Assembly: GCA_963741955.1 (NCBI GenBank)
Contig: CAVUKB010000004.1
Coordinates: forward strand, 641,194-705,193
Reading direction: 5' to 3'
Length of the DNA stretch: 64,000 bases
From: an uncultured Acidobacteriota bacterium
Lineage (GTDB): Bacteria; Acidobacteriota; Thermoanaerobaculia; Gp7-AA8
Shown: positions 13,170-17,872 of the stretch, piece after piece
How the letters are laid out: the number at the start of each line of letters is the position of its first letter
Numbering within the stretch: position 1 is the stretch's first letter
Translations under genes and position numbers: made by a program
Notes under the pieces: generated by a model
Database searches by the model: none
What the model was told of the DNA's origin: nothing
Seen by the model: the letters and a program-made list of their open reading frames with translations, nothing else

Positions 13170-13173
13170 CCCG

Positions 13174-13414
13174 GCCCATGGGTTGGACGTCCCGTCCGAT
13201 GCAGGGCGGCCCAGTGGGTTGGACGTCCCGTCCGATGCAGGGCGGCCCAGTGGGTTGGACGTCCCGTCCGATGCAGGGCGGCGTCCCGCGCCGCCCTGTC
13301 CGGTGCGAAATGCGAAGATCGTCCCGAGAGTCGAGAGACGAACGGACCGCATCGCGAGAGGTACGATCCGCGTTTGGTTGCCGCCATCGCTCCCCGGCAG
13401 GATGCCGGGGAGCC
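13174..13414. repeat. Unit 1 of the ~243-bp repeat array, with three 36-bp subrepeats and a terminal hairpin
   Basis: TGGGTTGGACGTCCCGTCCGATGCAGGGCGG at 13179, 13215 and 13251; ends with GCTCCCCGGCA-GGA-TGCCGGGGAGC. Confidence 0.9.
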
Positions 13415-13447
13415 CTGGAGTTTGGCGTTTCTCGAGCAAGGCGCGAG

Positions 13448-14860
13448 CTACGAAGTGGCGTACTGGACAGCCATTTCGGGGGTGACAGCGGATTTCGAGC
13501 GCTTCAGGTGTCGTGCGACGGGGGTCTGGAAGTCGGTGAAATTGGGGGGTTCGAAGTTGCGGATGTGGCGAATGCAGGCGGATCGCATCGCGCGAAGGTA
13601 CTGGCCGGTGGGTATTCGCCACTGATCGGGGATATCGTTGTCTCTCCACTTGGGCATCAGTTCGGGGGGCGCAGTGGAGCCGAGGCCGAAGCAATCGGCG
13701 GCAGCGAGGAGCATCATCGAGTAGACGGCTACGGCGAAAGCGGGCAGCGAGTCGACCGATCGCCGGTTGCGCACCTGCGCCTGGCCGACACCGAAGATCT
13801 GCTTTTCGTCGCGGTGATTGACCTCGATATCCCAGCGGCGGAAGTAGGCTTGGACGAGCTCGACGAGCGAGAGTTTCAGGTCGGTACAGATCAGGAACGC
13901 CGGTTTGCGATACAGCAGGCGTGATTTCTTGCGGAGCCGATAGCCCAGTGGCCGGATCACGACGAGCCGCAGAGGCAGTTCATAACCCGAAGTTTTCCAA
14001 AGCACGGGACCGATGGTCTTGATCGAACAGGCGTGTTCACGACCCGAGGCCCAGACTTGGACCTGTTGCCAGTCGATGGATTGGTCCACGCGGAGTTGAT
14101 CGGGTGTTGGGGCCTGATCGCCATACCAGCGCTTGCGTCCGCGAAGCGGTTGAGAGTTTGGAGGAAAGAACAGCTTCGCGTCGCCTCGGATGCGACCGAT
14201 CAGGATCGTTCGTTCCGGCAAGTTCCGCAGAACCGTACGGTTGGTGTAACCGCCGTCAACCACCGGCATCAGCACGCGCTCGCTCGCTCCGAGCTGGTCA
14301 AAGTCCTTGCGAGTTTGGATCAGCAGACGCGTTGCACCGATGGAAAGATTCTGCTCTTTCTGCTGGCGACGATACTCGGCACGTTCCTGCTCGGTTGCTC
14401 CGGCCCCCGGGCGAACCGCCGGAGGCTGGTGATTGAACCGGATCGGGAAGCTGCGCGCCGGACCGGCAGACTGGCCAGTTAAAGGAACACTGATCGCAGC
14501 CTGAATGAACCGTTGGGCGCGGATCAAGTTCGTGTGGAAAGGCGGCGACATCGGATCGCGCTGATAACTCACGCCTGGGATCTTCATGCCCGTCTTGCGC
14601 AACTTCGTGTCATCCAGCGGCAGCACCAGCGGTGCGTCGAGCGGCAAGTACGCGAGCAGGTGTCGTTCGATGACTCTGAACATCTCGCTCACATCGAACC
14701 GACCCTCCGAGAAAACGCGATAGTCTGCCGACCAGTCCTGCTGCGGATCGCGGCCTGCTTCAATCATTCCGCTTACCGTGTGTCGCCCGGTGCAGTTGAG
14801 CAGGCCGATGGCCAACCCACGAACCCGCTGAAGCACCCGAGCATCACAGGATCCATTCAA
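13448..14860 (-). CDS. DDE transposase
   Basis: LDDTKLRKTG, VVDGGY, and YFRRWDIEVNHRDEK (Y-2-R-3-E-6-K signature). Start is a weak TTG. Confidence 0.92.
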   Translation of the reverse strand: MNGSCDARVLQRVRGLAIGLLNCTGRHTVSGMIEAGRDPQQDWSADYRVFSEGRFDVSEMFRVIERHLLAYLPLDAPLVLPLDDTKLRKTGMKIPGVSYQRDPMSPPFHTNLIRAQRFIQAAISVPLTGQSAGPARSFPIRFNHQPPAVRPGAGATEQERAEYRRQQKEQNLSIGATRLLIQTRKDFDQLGASERVLMPVVDGGYTNRTVLRNLPERTILIGRIRGDAKLFFPPNSQPLRGRKRWYGDQAPTPDQLRVDQSIDWQQVQVWASGREHACSIKTIGPVLWKTSGYELPLRLVVIRPLGYRLRKKSRLLYRKPAFLICTDLKLSLVELVQAYFRRWDIEVNHRDEKQIFGVGQAQVRNRRSVDSLPAFAVAVYSMMLLAAADCFGLGSTAPPELMPKWRDNDIPDQWRIPTGQYLRAMRSACIRHIRNFEPPNFTDFQTPVARHLKRSKSAVTPEMAVQYATS

Positions 14861-14900
14861 TTCGTCGAAGATCGCGTTGAATGAGCGAAGAAGATTTCGA

Positions 14901-15110
14901 TCAGCGTTTTTTTTTGACCCGCTTCGCTTCGACGGTTCCGGTCGGATCCTTTGCCCGCTTGAGGATCAGCGTTCGCTTGTCCTCGATGACCCATTCGACG
15001 ATCTCACCGCGAATGAATTCACAAGCTTGGGCCACGGCCGCGGGAAGGTTCACGTACCACTGCCTGCTCTTTGCACGAGCGATCAGCTGCACTTTGGTTG
15101 GAAATCCCAT
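14901..15110 (-). CDS. AbrB/MazE-like small DNA-binding protein inside the IS
   Basis: GGAGG RBS; MGFPTKVQLI...WYVNLPAAVAQACEFIRGEIVEWVIEDKRTLILKR resembles a swapped-hairpin fold. Confidence 0.75.
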   Translation of the reverse strand: MGFPTKVQLIARAKSRQWYVNLPAAVAQACEFIRGEIVEWVIEDKRTLILKRAKDPTGTVEAKRVKKKR

Positions 15111-15126
15111 GGTGACCTCCTTCTGG

Positions 15127-15169
15127 TCTAGTGATATAACTAGATACCACGGGACGAAAAAAAAGTCCA
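15127..15169 (-). promoter_or_regulatory. Putative IS promoter with overlapping palindromic operator
   Basis: TGGACT-N17-TATCTA on the minus strand; palindrome TCTAGT-GATATA-ACTAGA (15127-15144) overlaps the -10. Confidence 0.5.
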
Positions 15170-15217
15170 GAATTCCTGGACTTCCGCCCAACGACTCCGA
15201 GTTCCGCCAAACTCCAG

Positions 15218-15790
15218 CGCTCCCCGGCAGGATGCCGGGGAGCCTCGCGCGAGACGCGCGACCCACGCGGCGCGACCCACAGGGCAGTGGGTTGGACGTC
15301 CCGTCCGATGCAGGGTGGCCCAGTGGGTTGGACGTCCCGTCCGATGCAGGGCGGCGTCCCGCGCCGCCCTGTCCGGTGCGAAATGCGAAGATCGTCCCGA
15401 GAGTCGAGAGACGAACGGACCGCGGCGCGAGAGGCGGGATCCGCGTTTGGTTGCCGCCATCGCTCCCCGGCAGGATGCCGGGGAGCCTCGCGCGAGACGC
15501 GCGACCCACGCGGCGCGACCCACAGGGCAGTGGGTTGGACGTCCCGTCCGATGCAGGGTGGCCCAGTGGGTTGGACGTCCCGTCCGATGCAGGGCGGCGT
15601 CCCGCGCCGCCCTGTCCGGTGCGAGATACTCGGATTGTCCCGAGATAAGAGAAGAACGGACTACGGCGCGAGAGGCGGGATCCGCGTTTGATTGCCGCCA
15701 TCGCTCCCCGGCAGGATGCCGGGGAGCCTCGCGCGAGACGCGCGACCCACTGACGCGCGACCCACCGGACGCGCGACCCACTCGGCGCGC
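15218..15790. repeat. Continuation of the ~243-bp tandem repeat array
   Basis: Hairpin recurs at 15218, 15461 and 15702 (periods 243 and 241 bp). Confidence 0.92.
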
Positions 15791-15979
15791 GACCGACGCG
15801 GCAGATGCGAGGATCGTCCCGAGAGAAGAGCCGAACGCCCCGATCTCCCATCCCTCCGAAACCTCTTCGCGACTCCATCGTCTTCAAGTAGAGGAATTTG
15901 TCTGATAATGGTCCGGTTCGATTCGGCTGGTGCGGCAGCATCGGACGACAATCCCATATCAATCCGAGGTGACAACCTG

Positions 15980-17872
15980 ATGGCTTCACCTGCACGCCGG
16001 CTGGGGAGACGATTCGCACTCATCGCTCCAGTCCTTCTCCTGGCGCTTTCGACGACTGCTTACGCATATCCGACCGCTCGGACCCAGACCCACATGGTCT
16101 ACGACGCGGCGGAGGGAAACATTCTCCTCTTCGGTGGGGTGACCGGGACCGACTCGGGCAACAAGAGAGTCTTCCTCAACGACACCTGGGAGTGGAACGG
16201 GAAACGGTGGATCGAGGTTCGACCGGCTCACCAGCCGAGTGGCCGTTCCGCCGGCGGGATGATCTACGACTCGAACCACGATGACGCGGTCCTCTTCGGC
16301 GGCTTCGACGGCACAAACTACCTGAACGACACCTGGTTCTTCGTCGACGGTGACTGGCAGCGGCAGTCGACGGCCGATGCTCCGACGCCGCGGCGTCTGT
16401 TCGGGATGACCTACGATCCGGTCATGGACCGGACCTTCGTCTTCGGCGGATCGAACGCGACCGCAAATCTCTACGATACGTGGACGTTCGACGGAACCAC
16501 GTGGACCAGAGTCAACGAGACCGGGCCTTCGGTGAACACTCCGTTCCTGGTGTACGACGCGGCGCGGGATCAGGTTCTCCTGATCGGGCAGACTGCGGAA
16601 GCGGTGACTCAGATGTACCGCTGGAGCAGCGATCACTGGGAGCAGCTGACGCCGGACACACTTCCCACCTGCATCAACTCGACTTCGATCGTCTACGAGC
16701 CGAACAACCAGAAGGTCCTGATGGTCGGCGGCTTCTGTTCGAACGCCTTCCCGAGCAGCGACTCGTGGGAGTGGGATGGCACCAACTGGACGAAGCTGAC
16801 CACCAGCCCTCCGATCGGATTTCTCTACGGAGAGGCGATGGCCTACGACCCGAATCGGGAAGAAGTCATCGTGTTCGGCGGAATCGATTCCCTCACCCGG
16901 AACGAAACCTATCGCTACCGGGATCTGAAGTTCACCCAGGCCTCCGACACGTTCACTCCGGGGCCCCGCTCACTTCCGGTGATGGCGACGGATCCCGAGA
17001 GCGGCACCATCTGGATGTACGGGGGACACAACGTCCGGCGGGACTTCTTCGATCTCTGGCGCTACTCGAGCGGCCGCTGGGTGAGGGTCAACGCGTCGAA
17101 CACCCCGGTCTGTACCTATGGGGCGGGGACGTGGGATCCCAGCCGCAAGAAGATGGTTCTCCTCTGTGAGGATTCGACGACCTACGAATGGGACGGATCG
17201 AGCTGGAAAGCATTTCCCGATCTGAAAAATCTCCCACCCGGCCGTCGATTCAGCTCTCTGGCCTACGATCCGGCGCTGAAGAAGGTTCTTCTCTTCGGCG
17301 GCTGGGAGACGATCAACCGGTACCTGAACGACATCTGGGAGTGGGACGGCACGAACTGGACGAAGGTCGACCGGAAGGGGAGTGCTCCCGATCCGCGATC
17401 TTCCGCCGCATTCTTCTGGGATCCTTCGACCCAGAAGATGATGGTGTTCGGTGGAATCGGACGGCCGACGCAGGAGGACAGCGCCCGCCGCTACGGCGAC
17501 ATGTTCAGCTGGGACGGCTCGCGATGGAACGAGGTGAAGCCCTCCACCGCGCCTTCGATCCGCTACGCGATGACGACCGGCACGGATCCGCTCACGGGAC
17601 AGCCGATGATCTTCGGCGGGAAAGACCAGAACGAGAACTACCTCGCCGAGCAGTGGAGCTGGGATGGCTCGAAGTGGCTGAAGGTCGAGCCGGGTCAGCA
17701 TCCGGAGGCTCGTATCAACAGTGCGATGACCATCGATCCCATCACTGGTGACCTGACCCTCTACGGCGGATACGACGGCCGTTACTTTCAGGATACGTGG
17801 ACCTGGGACGGTACGAACTGGACCCTCGTTCCGGTTCCTCCCGGGAAGCAGCGCGGAATCGGGTTTCCGTAA
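15980..17872 (+). CDS. Secreted Kelch-repeat beta-propeller protein
   Basis: Signal peptide; about 12 repeats of 'YD....LFGG...DTWEWDG..W'. Confidence 0.9.
   Translation: MASPARRLGRRFALIAPVLLLALSTTAYAYPTARTQTHMVYDAAEGNILLFGGVTGTDSGNKRVFLNDTWEWNGKRWIEVRPAHQPSGRSAGGMIYDSNHDDAVLFGGFDGTNYLNDTWFFVDGDWQRQSTADAPTPRRLFGMTYDPVMDRTFVFGGSNATANLYDTWTFDGTTWTRVNETGPSVNTPFLVYDAARDQVLLIGQTAEAVTQMYRWSSDHWEQLTPDTLPTCINSTSIVYEPNNQKVLMVGGFCSNAFPSSDSWEWDGTNWTKLTTSPPIGFLYGEAMAYDPNREEVIVFGGIDSLTRNETYRYRDLKFTQASDTFTPGPRSLPVMATDPESGTIWMYGGHNVRRDFFDLWRYSSGRWVRVNASNTPVCTYGAGTWDPSRKKMVLLCEDSTTYEWDGSSWKAFPDLKNLPPGRRFSSLAYDPALKKVLLFGGWETINRYLNDIWEWDGTNWTKVDRKGSAPDPRSSAAFFWDPSTQKMMVFGGIGRPTQEDSARRYGDMFSWDGSRWNEVKPSTAPSIRYAMTTGTDPLTGQPMIFGGKDQNENYLAEQWSWDGSKWLKVEPGQHPEARINSAMTIDPITGDLTLYGGYDGRYFQDTWTWDGTNWTLVPVPPGKQRGIGFP

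What the first reader, a model, noticed from the sequence alone, without database searches (positions are those of the whole stretch)
13388..15244. Hairpin-targeting IS that duplicated an entire 27-bp cruciform target
Seen: a 1803-bp element with perfect 13-bp TIRs is flanked by a 27-bp direct repeat. That repeat is exactly an 11-bp-stem/3-nt-loop hairpin (GCTCCCCGGCA-GGA-TGCCGGGGAGC) plus one base each side. Neighbouring repeat units (15461, 15702) show the empty site with one hairpin, so this is a real target duplication. Known: most DDE ISs make 2-14 bp duplications; long variable DRs are a rare property (e.g. IS1549, IS1634). Inference: the transposase attacks both sides of an extruded cruciform, so structure rather than sequence sets target choice and DR length, and the host's REP-like array acts as a safe landing pad.
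Basis: partly seen in the sequence, partly recalled or inferred. Interest (0 to 1): 0.85.

Follow-up and report, generated by a model that had tools for sequence, protein, structure and literature searches.

The report
Insertion sequence that duplicates whole hairpins
This is an active mobile element from a widespread, apparently undescribed group whose transposase inserts at small DNA hairpins of any sequence and copies the whole hairpin onto both sides of itself, so DNA shape rather than sequence picks the landing site.

Summary
An 1803-bp IS (13415-15217, perfect 13-bp inverted ends) lies between two identical 27-bp copies of a hairpin of 11-bp stem and 3-nt loop. Neighbouring repeat units carry that hairpin once.

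The behaviour is general. All 5 identical copies in this genome sit between direct repeats of 20-27 bp. These are four unrelated palindromes. One of them was used twice, with 21 and 27 bp duplicated.

Of 56 evaluable insertions (these 5 plus relatives from other genomes), 39 have a matched palindromic duplication of 16-28 bp (median 21). In 27 of 37 distinct sites the duplication equals the stem-loop, or the stem-loop plus 1 nt on each side. Twelve further insertions have different hairpins abutting the two ends; one reciprocal flank swap shows IS-IS recombination can cause this.

The transposase has a Tn5-like DDE fold and barely passes one IS701 model. It does not fit IS701's 4-bp duplication, size, end consensus or missing YREK motif. 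A conserved AbrB/MazE-like small gene lies upstream.

Attack at both feet of an extruded stem-loop is the simplest mechanism, but it is inferred. The IS1272 paper drew this outcome as a hypothetical pathway. My nine literature searches found no description of this group. I rate it a new variant of a known kind.

The parts
13388..13414 (.). Left copy of the 27-bp target duplication: 11-bp stem, 3-nt loop, plus 1 nt on each side
   Evidence: fold -15 kcal/mol, z = -6.4
13415..15217 (-). The insertion sequence, 1803 bp. Both genes are on the minus strand.
   Evidence: Five 100% identical copies in the genome. A separate 1803-base contig with the same borders in run X1.
13415..13427 (.). Terminal inverted repeat at the end downstream of the transposase gene (13 bp perfect, 17 of 20 extended)
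   Evidence: The terminal motif CTGGAGTTT is shared by relatives.
13448..14860 (-). DDE transposase, 470 aa from a TTG start. Candidate catalytic residues D84, D202 and E346. YREK motif at Y339, R342, E346 and K353.
   Evidence: Pfam DDE_5 at 1.4e-16. NCBIfam NF049999 IS701_3 scores 171.9 against a cutoff of 170. These residues are invariant in alignment A1. AF2 model pLDDT 79.9, with Tn5 transposase as top fold match at E = 1.8e-8. The N-terminal 31 aa are conserved in A1, so the long form is preferred over the 439-aa database form.
14901..15110 (-). Small conserved ORF, 69 aa plus stop, AbrB/MazE/SpoVT-like
   Evidence: tblastn finds it upstream of the transposase gene in 57 related loci outside the own genome, of the 95 then held. 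Alignment A2 has 65% mean column identity. PF04014 matches 13 of 24 homologues, best E = 3.5e-5, but not the window's own protein. The AF2 model has strand-strand-helix-strand-strand order, pLDDT 66. Top Foldseek hits are MazE, C56, C68, VapB and AbrB, all with E > 0.3.
15161..15185 (-). Terminator-like hairpin with a T-run inside the IS, between the upstream end and the small ORF
   Evidence: 11 pairs, loop of 3, T-rich tail. This is a consensus scan only.
15205..15217 (.). Terminal inverted repeat at the end upstream of the small ORF
15218..15244 (.). Right copy of the 27-bp target duplication
15461..15487 (.). Paralogous empty site: the same 27 bases present once in the next array unit
   Evidence: family D3, 98%
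15702..15728 (.). Second paralogous empty site
   Evidence: family D3, 98%
13172..15805 (.). Host REP-like array that the IS interrupts. Units of about 240 bp hold the target hairpin, 36-nt tandem sub-repeats, a second hairpin with a 10-bp stem, and 14-16-nt repeats.
   Evidence: The genome holds 106 exact copies of the 25-nt hairpin, in arrays on 5 contigs. No Rfam match at E <= 0.1.

Best explanation
This is a recently active insertion sequence. It belongs to a widespread clade of Tn5-like DDE transposons that is related to IS701 but atypical of it, and that I could not find described. The element carries a small AbrB/MazE-like gene followed by the transposase gene. It does not read a target sequence. 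It inserts at short palindromic stem-loops of 7-12 bp stem and 3-5 nt loop, such as REP-like hairpins and terminator-like hairpins. The two transposon 3' ends join the target at the two 5' feet of the stem-loop, usually 1 nt outside the stem. Repair of the two single-stranded gaps then copies the whole stem-loop onto both sides of the element. The simplest geometry is a palindrome extruded as a cruciform, either spontaneously or by the transpososome, because that brings the two feet next to each other whatever the stem length. A consequence is that the hairpin survives on both sides, so the host keeps it and the IS is bracketed by hairpins.

Shown: the element, its borders, its copies, the palindromic duplications, their centring, and how they track the stem foot. 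Inferred: extrusion, the order of chemical steps, cut-and-paste movement (by analogy with Tn5), and a regulatory role for the small protein.
For: 1. All 5 of 5 identical copies in the genome have direct repeats of 20, 21, 21, 24 and 27 bp. These are four unrelated palindromes.

2. Hairpin centres with a perfect stem of at least 7 bp occupy 3.7e-4 of genome positions: 3986 centres in 5.44 Mb.

3. I examined 85 loci, namely the 80 loci kept from the other-genome scan plus the 5 own copies. In 22 the ends were not found by the terminal motif and in 7 the flanks were too short. Of the 56 evaluable, 39 have a matched palindromic repeat of 16-28 bp (median 21). Another 12 have different hairpins abutting both ends, 4 have a hairpin on one side, and 1 has none. 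At random positions in the same loci a hairpin abuts one side in 295 of 5700 cases, or 5.2%.

4. Long-read assemblies give the cleanest picture: 13 of 13 full copies in one Opitutales genome and 6 of 6 in one Acidobacteriota genome have matched palindromic repeats. In a second Acidobacteriota genome 4 of 5 do by the motif method, and the fifth, L092, by eye.

5. The best hairpin within 25 nt of the reconstructed empty site is centred exactly on the repeat in 33 of 39 cases.

6. The repeat ends 1 nt outside the stem foot in 20 of 37 distinct sites and exactly at it in 7 of 37. Repeat length correlates with stem-loop span, r = 0.54, permutation p = 0.0002.

7. A second element in another genome, with 39% transposase identity and different ends, behaves the same way. 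Its copies L110 and L111 carry reciprocally swapped hairpin flanks, which shows that IS-IS recombination can produce unmatched flanks.

8. A subclade with a different upstream ORF (weak HARE-HTH match, E = 0.0015) also duplicates hairpins. The trait therefore goes with the transposase rather than with the AbrB-like protein.

9. The transposase model matches Tn5 transposase at E = 1.8e-8.

10. Contig ends in runs X1 and X2 show what look like two further junctions, each with another hairpin directly next to the IS end (my reading of the loose ends).

11. The model in the IS1272 paper (Fig 13, pathway b) states that attack at the 5' feet of a cruciform would duplicate the whole stem-loop (PMC5678879, Discussion read).
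Against: - No experiment or read evidence here shows extrusion. From my own knowledge, stems of 7-12 bp are generally thought too short to extrude readily.
- Repeat lengths cluster narrowly (mean 21.5, sd 2.3). The regression slope of repeat length on hairpin span is only 0.37, so a preferred spacing of about two helical turns is not excluded.
- The same REP hairpin gave 21 bp and 27 bp, and 5 of 37 sites are cut 1-2 bp inside the stem.
- 17 of the 56 evaluable loci lack a matched repeat. Recombination or chimeric short-read assembly explains them plausibly, but this is demonstrated for only one pair.
- For 22 of the 85 loci the ends were not found by my motif, so those loci are untested.
- No orthologous empty site was recovered. 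No contig joins across the IS. The empty-site evidence is paralogous only.
Confidence: 0.7

Rival explanations
1. Fixed long stagger on ordinary duplex DNA. The transpososome cuts about 21-22 bp apart, roughly two helical turns, and as a symmetric dimer prefers symmetric target DNA without any extrusion.
For: Repeat lengths peak at 21-22 bp (16 of 37) with sd 2.3. (Repeat - loop)/2 is 9.0 +/- 1.2 bp, about one helical turn from the loop. The slope of repeat length on hairpin span is 0.37, not 1. One hairpin gave both 21 and 27 bp.
Against: The targets share no sequence, ranging from GC-rich to a purely A/T 16-mer. Every repeat is nonetheless centred exactly on a dyad. The range of 16-28 bp is far wider than is usual for DDE transposases (my own knowledge). 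The boundary tracks the stem foot within 1 nt in 29 of 37 sites.
Confidence: 0.13
2. An accessory or host protein finds the hairpin. The AbrB-like protein, the HARE-HTH-like protein, or a host protein bound to REP or terminator hairpins recruits the transposase, which itself has no structure specificity.
For: A small DNA-binding-type ORF is conserved upstream of the transposase gene in most relatives. Recruitment of transposases by other proteins is known for other elements (my own knowledge).
Against: Two subclades with unrelated upstream ORFs, and elements in several phyla, show the same footprint. Cut positions are exact relative to the stem foot for unrelated hairpin sequences.
Confidence: 0.1
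3. Survivorship. The element inserts anywhere with a long duplication, and only harmless insertions in intergenic hairpins persist.
For: The hairpins I looked at lie in REP arrays or near gene ends by my reading of flanks. Purifying selection against genic insertions is general.
Against: Selection cannot make the duplication coincide base for base with the dyad centre and stem feet. The 5 own copies are 100% identical, so they are recent.
Confidence: 0.03
4. The hairpins belong to the element, as long terminal repeats carried from site to site, and are not target duplications.
For: Because the flank is palindromic, the ends read as a 46-nt inverted repeat at 85% (pair I1).
Against: Identical copies carry four unrelated hairpins. 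The repeated unit ends exactly at the 13-bp inverted ends. Empty sites with one hairpin exist.
Confidence: 0.01

Closest known systems
IS701 family (as defined in 'IS4 family goes genomic', PMC2266710)
   Same: DDE transposase with Pfam DDE_5. Passes NCBIfam NF049999 'IS701 family transposase' (171.9 against a cutoff of 170). Terminal inverted repeats. Related to the IS4 family.
   Different: The family is described with a duplication of exactly 4 bp, a size of 1400-1550 bp, the end consensus ---YACT-Y--YR, and no YREK motif (passages read). Here the duplication is a 16-28 bp palindrome, the element is 1.75-2.08 kb, the ends begin CTGGAGTTT, and Y-R-E-K is invariant. The main IS701 model fails (53 against a cutoff of 150). 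The element also carries a second conserved gene.
IS1272 and other IS1182-family members that target palindromes (PMC5678879)
   Same: The target is a stem-loop with no sequence similarity between sites. A cruciform model has the transposon ends attacking the feet of the two stem-loops. That paper's hypothetical pathway b predicts exactly the whole-stem-loop duplication seen here.
   Different: IS1272 removes the stem-loop and makes no duplication ('IR-replacing'). That paper offers pathway b only as a possibility. The transposase families differ: no IS1182 model appeared among the 8 NCBIfam matches.
   Same: IS4-related DDE elements for which unusually long duplications are reported (my recollection; PMC2266710 gives 5-6 bp AT-rich duplications for the family).
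   Different: The IS1634 model matches only weakly (E = 0.0089, 15 bits against a cutoff of 100). By my recollection their long repeats are not palindromic and are not set by a hairpin.
REP-targeting insertion sequences (ISPpu9 and ISPpu10 of IS110; IS1397 of IS3)
   Same: Insertion into repetitive extragenic palindromes, which are harmless intergenic sites. I saw only search-listing abstracts. IS1397 is recalled from my own knowledge.
   Different: Those elements recognise a particular REP sequence, by bridge RNA in the IS110 family, and do not duplicate the whole hairpin. Here unrelated hairpins are used, and only 2 of 5 insertions are in the REP array.
Tn5 transposase (IS50, IS4 family)
   Same: Best structural match of the transposase model (E = 1.8e-8, TM about 0.49). 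DDE plus YREK signature.
   Different: Sequence identity is 12-15%. Tn5 makes a fixed 9-bp duplication (my own knowledge). No IS4 model reaches its cutoff.
Cas1-Cas2 spacer integration and casposon integration
   Same: Two staggered strand transfers at the two borders of a repeat that is often palindromic, so that the whole repeat is duplicated. This is an analogy recalled from my own knowledge; I saw only the abstract of PMC5137440 in search listings.
   Different: The enzyme is unrelated (Cas1, not DDE), and the repeat and leader are recognised by sequence.

Membership tests
IS701 family | Transposase matches a curated IS701 model above its cutoff | tested here: inconclusive
   NF049999 transpos_IS701_3 scores 171.9 against a cutoff of 170, a bare pass. 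NF033540 transpos_IS701 scores 53 against 150 and NF049921 scores 21 against 250, both fails. Pfam DDE_5 matches at 1.4e-16.
IS701 family | Target duplication of exactly 4 bp | tested here: not met
   Duplications are 16-28 bp palindromes in 39 of 56 evaluable insertions, and none of these 39 is short. The family definition comes from PMC2266710 passages.
IS701 family | Size of 1400-1550 bp and end consensus ---YACT-Y--YR | tested here: not met
   This element is 1803 bp, and relatives with both ends located are 1735-2078 bp. The ends begin CTGGAGTTTGG.
IS701 family | YREK motif absent or incomplete | tested here: not met
   Y339, R342, E346 and K353, with spacing Y-2-R-3-E-6-K, are invariant in 22 sequences.
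IS4 family | DDE plus a complete YREK motif and a Tn5-like fold | tested here: met
   Invariant D84, D202, E346 and YREK. Tn5 transposase is the top fold match at E = 1.8e-8.
IS4 family | Curated IS4 model above cutoff, and a duplication of 7-13 bp | tested here: not met
   IS4 models score 34.7 against 250, 34.3 against 152 and 16.1 against 115. Duplications are 16-28 bp.
IS1182 family (IS1272-type hairpin targeting) | IS1182-type transposase | tested here: not met
   No IS1182 model is among the 8 NCBIfam families matched at E <= 0.1. That NCBIfam holds such a model is my recollection.
IS1182 family (IS1272-type hairpin targeting) | Stem-loops of unrelated sequence used as targets | tested here: met
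   This shows that the element works like that family, not that it is a member.
IS1634 family | Curated IS1634 model above cutoff | tested here: not met
   15.1 bits against a cutoff of 100, E = 0.0089.
SpoVT/AbrB/MazE swapped-hairpin domain (small ORF) | Match to PF04014 and a strand-strand-helix-strand-strand fold | tested here: inconclusive
   13 of 24 homologues match PF04014, best E = 3.5e-5, but the window's own protein does not match at E <= 10. The AF2 monomer has the expected order of elements, pLDDT 66. Top Foldseek hits are MazE, C56, C68, VapB, SpoVT and AbrB, all with E > 0.3. A PDB profile search gives C56 at E = 0.17. Dimer formation was not tested.

The most novel reading that the evidence does not exclude
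A large clade of Tn5-like DDE transposases, spread across several phyla, are true structure-specific integrases. They capture, or themselves extrude, a four-way junction at any short palindrome and join the transposon ends at its two feet. Each insertion would then be a natural footprint showing that hairpins of 7-12 bp stem, including terminators and REPs, are available as non-B DNA in living cells. The enzyme could serve as a sequence-independent, hairpin-preserving insertion tool or as a probe for cruciforms.
Probability: 0.45. Interest if true: 0.8.

Novelty: new variant of a known kind. Interest (0 to 1): 0.7.

Why it matters
DDE transposases normally make a short duplication of fixed length, set by the spacing of their two active sites on duplex DNA. 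Here the duplication is set by the target's own secondary structure. This points to a different way of capturing target DNA in a Tn5-like enzyme.

The behaviour is not a single oddity. It holds across elements with about 40-56% transposase identity, found in genomes labelled Acidobacteriota, Planctomycetota, Verrucomicrobiota, Nitrospirales and others. A database search found 3376 homologues at E <= 1e-20.

Three things follow if the reading is right:
- It makes a long-standing question testable, namely whether short palindromes such as terminators and REPs leave the B-form in vivo.
- It shows a way for a mobile element to insert without destroying the hairpin it lands in. Whether this spares terminator function or shields the IS from read-through was not tested. 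Terminator-like sequences upstream of ISs are reported as a general pattern in PMC13548323 (passages read).
- IS-annotation tools that expect duplications of 2-14 bp will misplace the ends of these elements, because the flanking palindromes read as extended inverted repeats. My own unanchored end search did exactly this.

Tried and rejected
- A naive scan for direct repeats of at least 10 bp around the distant same-phylum relatives (36-45% identity, loci L007-L019) found nothing interpretable. A general inverted-repeat search there also failed to place their ends. I therefore cannot say where in the tree the hairpin behaviour begins, or whether those relatives make 4-bp duplications.
- An unanchored search for terminal inverted repeats mis-set many ends, because the flanking palindromes extend the apparent inverted repeat (a first version timed out). 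I replaced it with anchoring on the conserved terminal motif.
- The plasmid collection holds only relatives at 23-26% identity, all annotated 'transposase' or unannotated, so it gave no named IS.
- Laying contigs of three soil-metagenome runs on another copy of the IS found no contig joining across an empty site. Contigs cannot show absence.
- Rfam gave no match in the array or the IS at E <= 0.1. The promoter scan found none.
- ORF scanning of flanks in this GC-rich genome was too noisy to call coding against intergenic context. 'Terminator-like' for two own sites rests on my reading of A-runs and T-runs next to the hairpins.
- The review by Siguier et al., cited in PMC5678879 for IS1182 palindrome targeting, is not held, and ISfinder could not be consulted.
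- Supplementary files were not opened. Additional file 8 of PMC2266710 (IS701 clusters and ends) and S3 Fig of PMC5678879 may bear on whether similar elements were already catalogued.
- I did not run a complex prediction for the small protein, because the report does not claim binding.
Full report
**1. The observation**

One search shows an 1803-bp element at 13415-15217. Its first 13 bases are the exact reverse complement of its last 13, and the ends match at 17 of 20 positions when extended. On each side lies the same 27-bp string, at 13388-13414 and at 15218-15244. As single-stranded DNA this string folds into an 11-bp stem and 3-nt loop with one unpaired base on each side. The energy is -15 kcal/mol, z = -6.4, and 0 of 200 shuffles fold as well.

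The element interrupts a host array of units of about 240 bp. The unit to its left (13212-13414) is 97% identical to 15285-15487. The 53 nt that start 4 nt before the right-hand copy are 98% identical to the corresponding parts of the next two units. Taking out the element and one hairpin copy therefore restores an ordinary unit with one hairpin, as at 15461-15487 and 15702-15728.

**2. Contents of the element**

On the minus strand there is a 470-aa ORF (13448-14860) that matches Pfam DDE_5 at 1.4e-16. It also matches NCBIfam NF049999, 'IS701 family transposase', at 171.9 bits against a cutoff of 170. All other IS701, IS4 and IS1634 models fall far below their cutoffs.

In an alignment with 21 database homologues, D84, D202 and E346 are invariant. 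So is a complete Y339-R342-E346-K353 signature. An AlphaFold2 model (pLDDT 79.9, pTM 0.79) has Tn5 transposase as its best solved match, at E = 1.8e-8 and probability 1.00.

Upstream of the transposase gene, after a ribosome-binding-site-like GGAGG, lies a 69-aa ORF (14904-15110).
- tblastn finds it in the same position in 57 related loci outside the own genome, of the 95 then held.
- Twenty-four copies align at 65% mean column identity.
- Thirteen of the 24 match PF04014 (MazE/AbrB-type), best E = 3.5e-5, although the window's own copy does not.
- The model has strand-strand-helix-strand-strand order, pLDDT 66.
- Its top fold matches are MazE, C56, C68, VapB, SpoVT and AbrB, all weak with E > 0.3.

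I read it as an AbrB/MazE-like DNA-binding protein, probably a regulator of the element. That role is inferred.

A terminator-like hairpin lies inside the element between its upstream end and this ORF.

**3. Other copies in the same genome**

The genome has 5.44 Mb in 16 contigs and holds five copies that are 100% identical over all 1803 bases. Every one is flanked by a direct repeat. The repeat lengths are 20, 21, 24, 21 and 27 bp, and every repeat folds as a hairpin with z between -3.9 and -6.4.

Four different hairpin sequences are involved. Two insertions used the same REP-type hairpin in different arrays, and there the duplication was 21 bp in one case and 27 bp in the other.

Positions centred on a perfect stem of at least 7 bp with a loop of 3-5 nt make up 3.7e-4 of the genome, or 3986 centres. 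Five hits out of five cannot be chance.

The REP hairpin occurs 106 times exactly, in arrays on five contigs. The 'landing pad' idea therefore covers 2 of the 5 insertions. Two others are next to A-runs or T-runs and look like terminators (my reading). One is a different palindrome.

In contigs of a soil-metagenome run the element is a separate contig of exactly 1803 bases, at depth 62.5 against 14.1 for the flank. Contig ends in two runs appear to show two more junctions, each with a further hairpin directly abutting the element's end. The first run may be the source of the genome, so it is not independent. No contig joins across an empty site.

**4. Relatives elsewhere**

A database search found 3376 proteins at E <= 1e-20, among the 8000 candidates that were scored. 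Most sit on contigs of about 1.8 kb, as expected for a collapsed repeat.

A scan of one genome per species found 181 encoding stretches. The best 80 were kept, and they come from genomes labelled Acidobacteriota, Planctomycetota, Verrucomicrobiota, Nitrospirales, Chloroflexi and others. Within the window's own phylum, 10 of 401 sampled genomes had a match, counting the window's own genome.

In multi-copy long-read genomes the borders of the repeated unit can be read directly. The flanks are palindromic direct repeats of unrelated sequence in 13 of 13 full copies in an Opitutales genome, in 6 of 6 copies in one Acidobacteriota genome, and in 4 of 5 copies in a second Acidobacteriota genome. The fifth copy there, L092, has a changed terminal base and so escaped my motif, but it shows a matched repeat by eye.

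For a uniform count I anchored the ends on the shared terminal motif. I examined 85 loci: the 80 from other genomes plus the 5 own copies.
- In 22 both ends were not found.
- In 7 a flank was too short.
- Of the 56 evaluable, 39 had a matched repeat of 16-28 bp (37 distinct; median 21, mean 21.5, sd 2.3), and every one was a symmetric palindrome.
- 12 had different hairpins abutting the two ends.
- 4 had a hairpin on one side only.
- 1 had none by my criterion.
- At random positions in the same loci a hairpin foot lies within 3 nt on a given side in 295 of 5700 cases (5.2%).

The unmatched cases come mostly from short-read contigs, or from a set of copies that are 95% identical. In the genome that holds that set, a second and more distant element shows what probably happens. 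This element has 39% transposase identity, different ends and is 1760 bp long. Of the 10 copies I oriented, 3 have exact palindromic repeats of 22-23 bp and 2 have near-exact ones. Three have a hairpin on one side and a partial one on the other. Copies L110 and L111 carry reciprocally exchanged flanks, hairpin A | IS | hairpin B and B | IS | A (read by eye). IS-IS recombination can therefore produce unmatched flanks. For the other cases this explanation is assumed.

**5. Where the joints are**

In reconstructed empty sites the best hairpin within 25 nt is centred exactly on the duplication in 33 of 39 cases. In the other 6, my lenient scoring preferred a neighbouring structure, but the duplication is itself a symmetric stem.

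I then measured a strict stem outward from the centre of each duplication. The duplication ends:
- 1 nt outside the stem foot in 20 of 37 distinct sites;
- exactly at the foot in 7;
- 2 nt outside in 3;
- 1-2 bp inside the stem in 5;
- 4 or 6 nt beyond the strict stem in 2, both at hairpins where an internal mismatch ends the strict stem early.

Duplication length correlates with stem-loop span (r = 0.54, permutation p = 0.0002). The slope is only 0.37 and the lengths cluster at 21-22 bp.

A subclade whose ends read CTGGAGTTTCTACA has a different upstream ORF of 111 aa in the one copy examined, L089, with a weak HARE-HTH match at E = 0.0015. The AbrB-like ORF was not detected in it by tblastn at E <= 1e-3. 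This subclade makes the same palindromic duplications. The trait therefore follows the transposase.

**6. Mechanism**

A duplication arises when the two transposon 3' ends attack the two target strands with a 5' stagger. Here the stagger spans a whole stem-loop, is centred on the dyad, and follows the stem foot in targets that share no sequence. The simplest reading is that the target is presented as a cruciform, so that the two 5' feet lie next to each other whatever the stem length. A stagger of about 2 nt across the junction then becomes 'stem-loop + 2' in linear coordinates. Partial extrusion through branch migration would explain cuts inside the stem, and the 21 against 27 bp at the same hairpin.

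This is inference. From my own knowledge, stems this short are thought to extrude poorly, so the transpososome may have to drive extrusion itself.

The main rival is a preferred spacing of about two helical turns on duplex DNA with a taste for symmetric sites. It fits the narrow length distribution. It does not explain exact centring on unrelated sequences or the 16-28 bp range.

I considered three other readings. Recruitment by an accessory or host protein, and survivorship of harmless insertions, rank lower. The idea that the hairpins are part of the element is refuted by the identical copies with different hairpins.

**7. Comparison with what is known**

The IS701 family is defined with a duplication of exactly 4 bp, a size of 1400-1550 bp, a different end consensus and no YREK motif (PMC2266710, passages read). 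This clade fails all four, while barely passing one IS701 model. It is best called an IS701/IS4-related group of its own.

The nearest behaviour is that of IS1272 in the IS1182 family. IS1272 targets stem-loops of unrelated sequence but replaces them and makes no duplication. [quoted passage not shown] The paper also notes that palindrome targeting by IS1182 members had been mentioned earlier without data (PMC5678879; abstract, passages and part 1 of 2 of the Discussion read). The present clade appears to be a natural instance of pathway b in a different transposase family.

REP-targeting IS110 and IS3 elements are sequence-guided or RNA-guided. Repeat duplication by Cas1-Cas2 is an analogy from my own knowledge.

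**8. Novelty and limits**

Nine full-text searches found no description of an IS701-type or DDE_5-type element with palindromic or hairpin-sized duplications. The searches combined IS701, IS1182, palindromic, hairpin, stem-loop, cruciform, terminator, target site duplication and related terms.

There are limits to that claim. ISfinder, the review cited for IS1182, and all supplementary files could not be consulted. An existing catalogue entry therefore cannot be excluded.

I rate this a new variant of a known kind: structure-targeting insertion sequences. The phenomenon is well supported. The mechanism is plausible and untested.

Noticed in passing
window 13172-13414 and 15218-15805; also G000 contigs C4, C5, C7, C9 and C10: The host 'REP-like' array is itself unusual. 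Units of about 170-310 bp are repeated in tandem. Each holds the 25-nt hairpin (106 exact copies genome-wide, 81 in one orientation and 25 in the other), 2-3 copies of a 36-nt tandem sub-repeat, a second hairpin with a 10-bp stem (for example 13274-13298) and 14-16-nt GC-rich repeats. It has no Rfam match and I have no explanation for it.
   Followed up: partly
window 15129-15150 (minus strand, just upstream of the small ORF's start): A short dyad (TCTAGT..ACTAGA) lies between the internal terminator-like hairpin and the ribosome-binding site of the AbrB-like ORF. It is a candidate operator for autoregulation.
   Followed up: no
L110 and L111 (genome G401, contigs C12 and C4): Two copies of a related IS carry reciprocally exchanged hairpin flanks. 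This points to a rearrangement by recombination between IS copies in that genome.
   Followed up: partly
L096 and L097 (genome of L094): Two IS copies share nearly the same right flank. In L097 the left flank is the reverse complement of the right flank over about 26 nt, which suggests an inversion or a nested arrangement of copies.
   Followed up: no
L089 2106-2441: The subclade with ends CTGGAGTTTCTACA has an upstream 111-aa ORF with a weak HARE-HTH match (E = 0.0015, below cutoff); the AbrB-like ORF was not detected there. The accessory gene appears to have been exchanged within the clade.
   Followed up: partly
L114, L116 and L117 (genome G401): Three copies of the second IS have the same kind of GC-rich hairpin on the left and only a truncated version of it on the right, followed in L114 and L117 by identical sequence. 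This may reflect insertion into another repeated element, or a deletion next to the IS.
   Followed up: no
window 15692-17872 (+): Directly downstream of the array lies a 726-aa ORF that looks to me, from the translation, like a Kelch or beta-propeller repeat protein with a signal-peptide-like N-terminus. It was not searched against any library.
   Followed up: no
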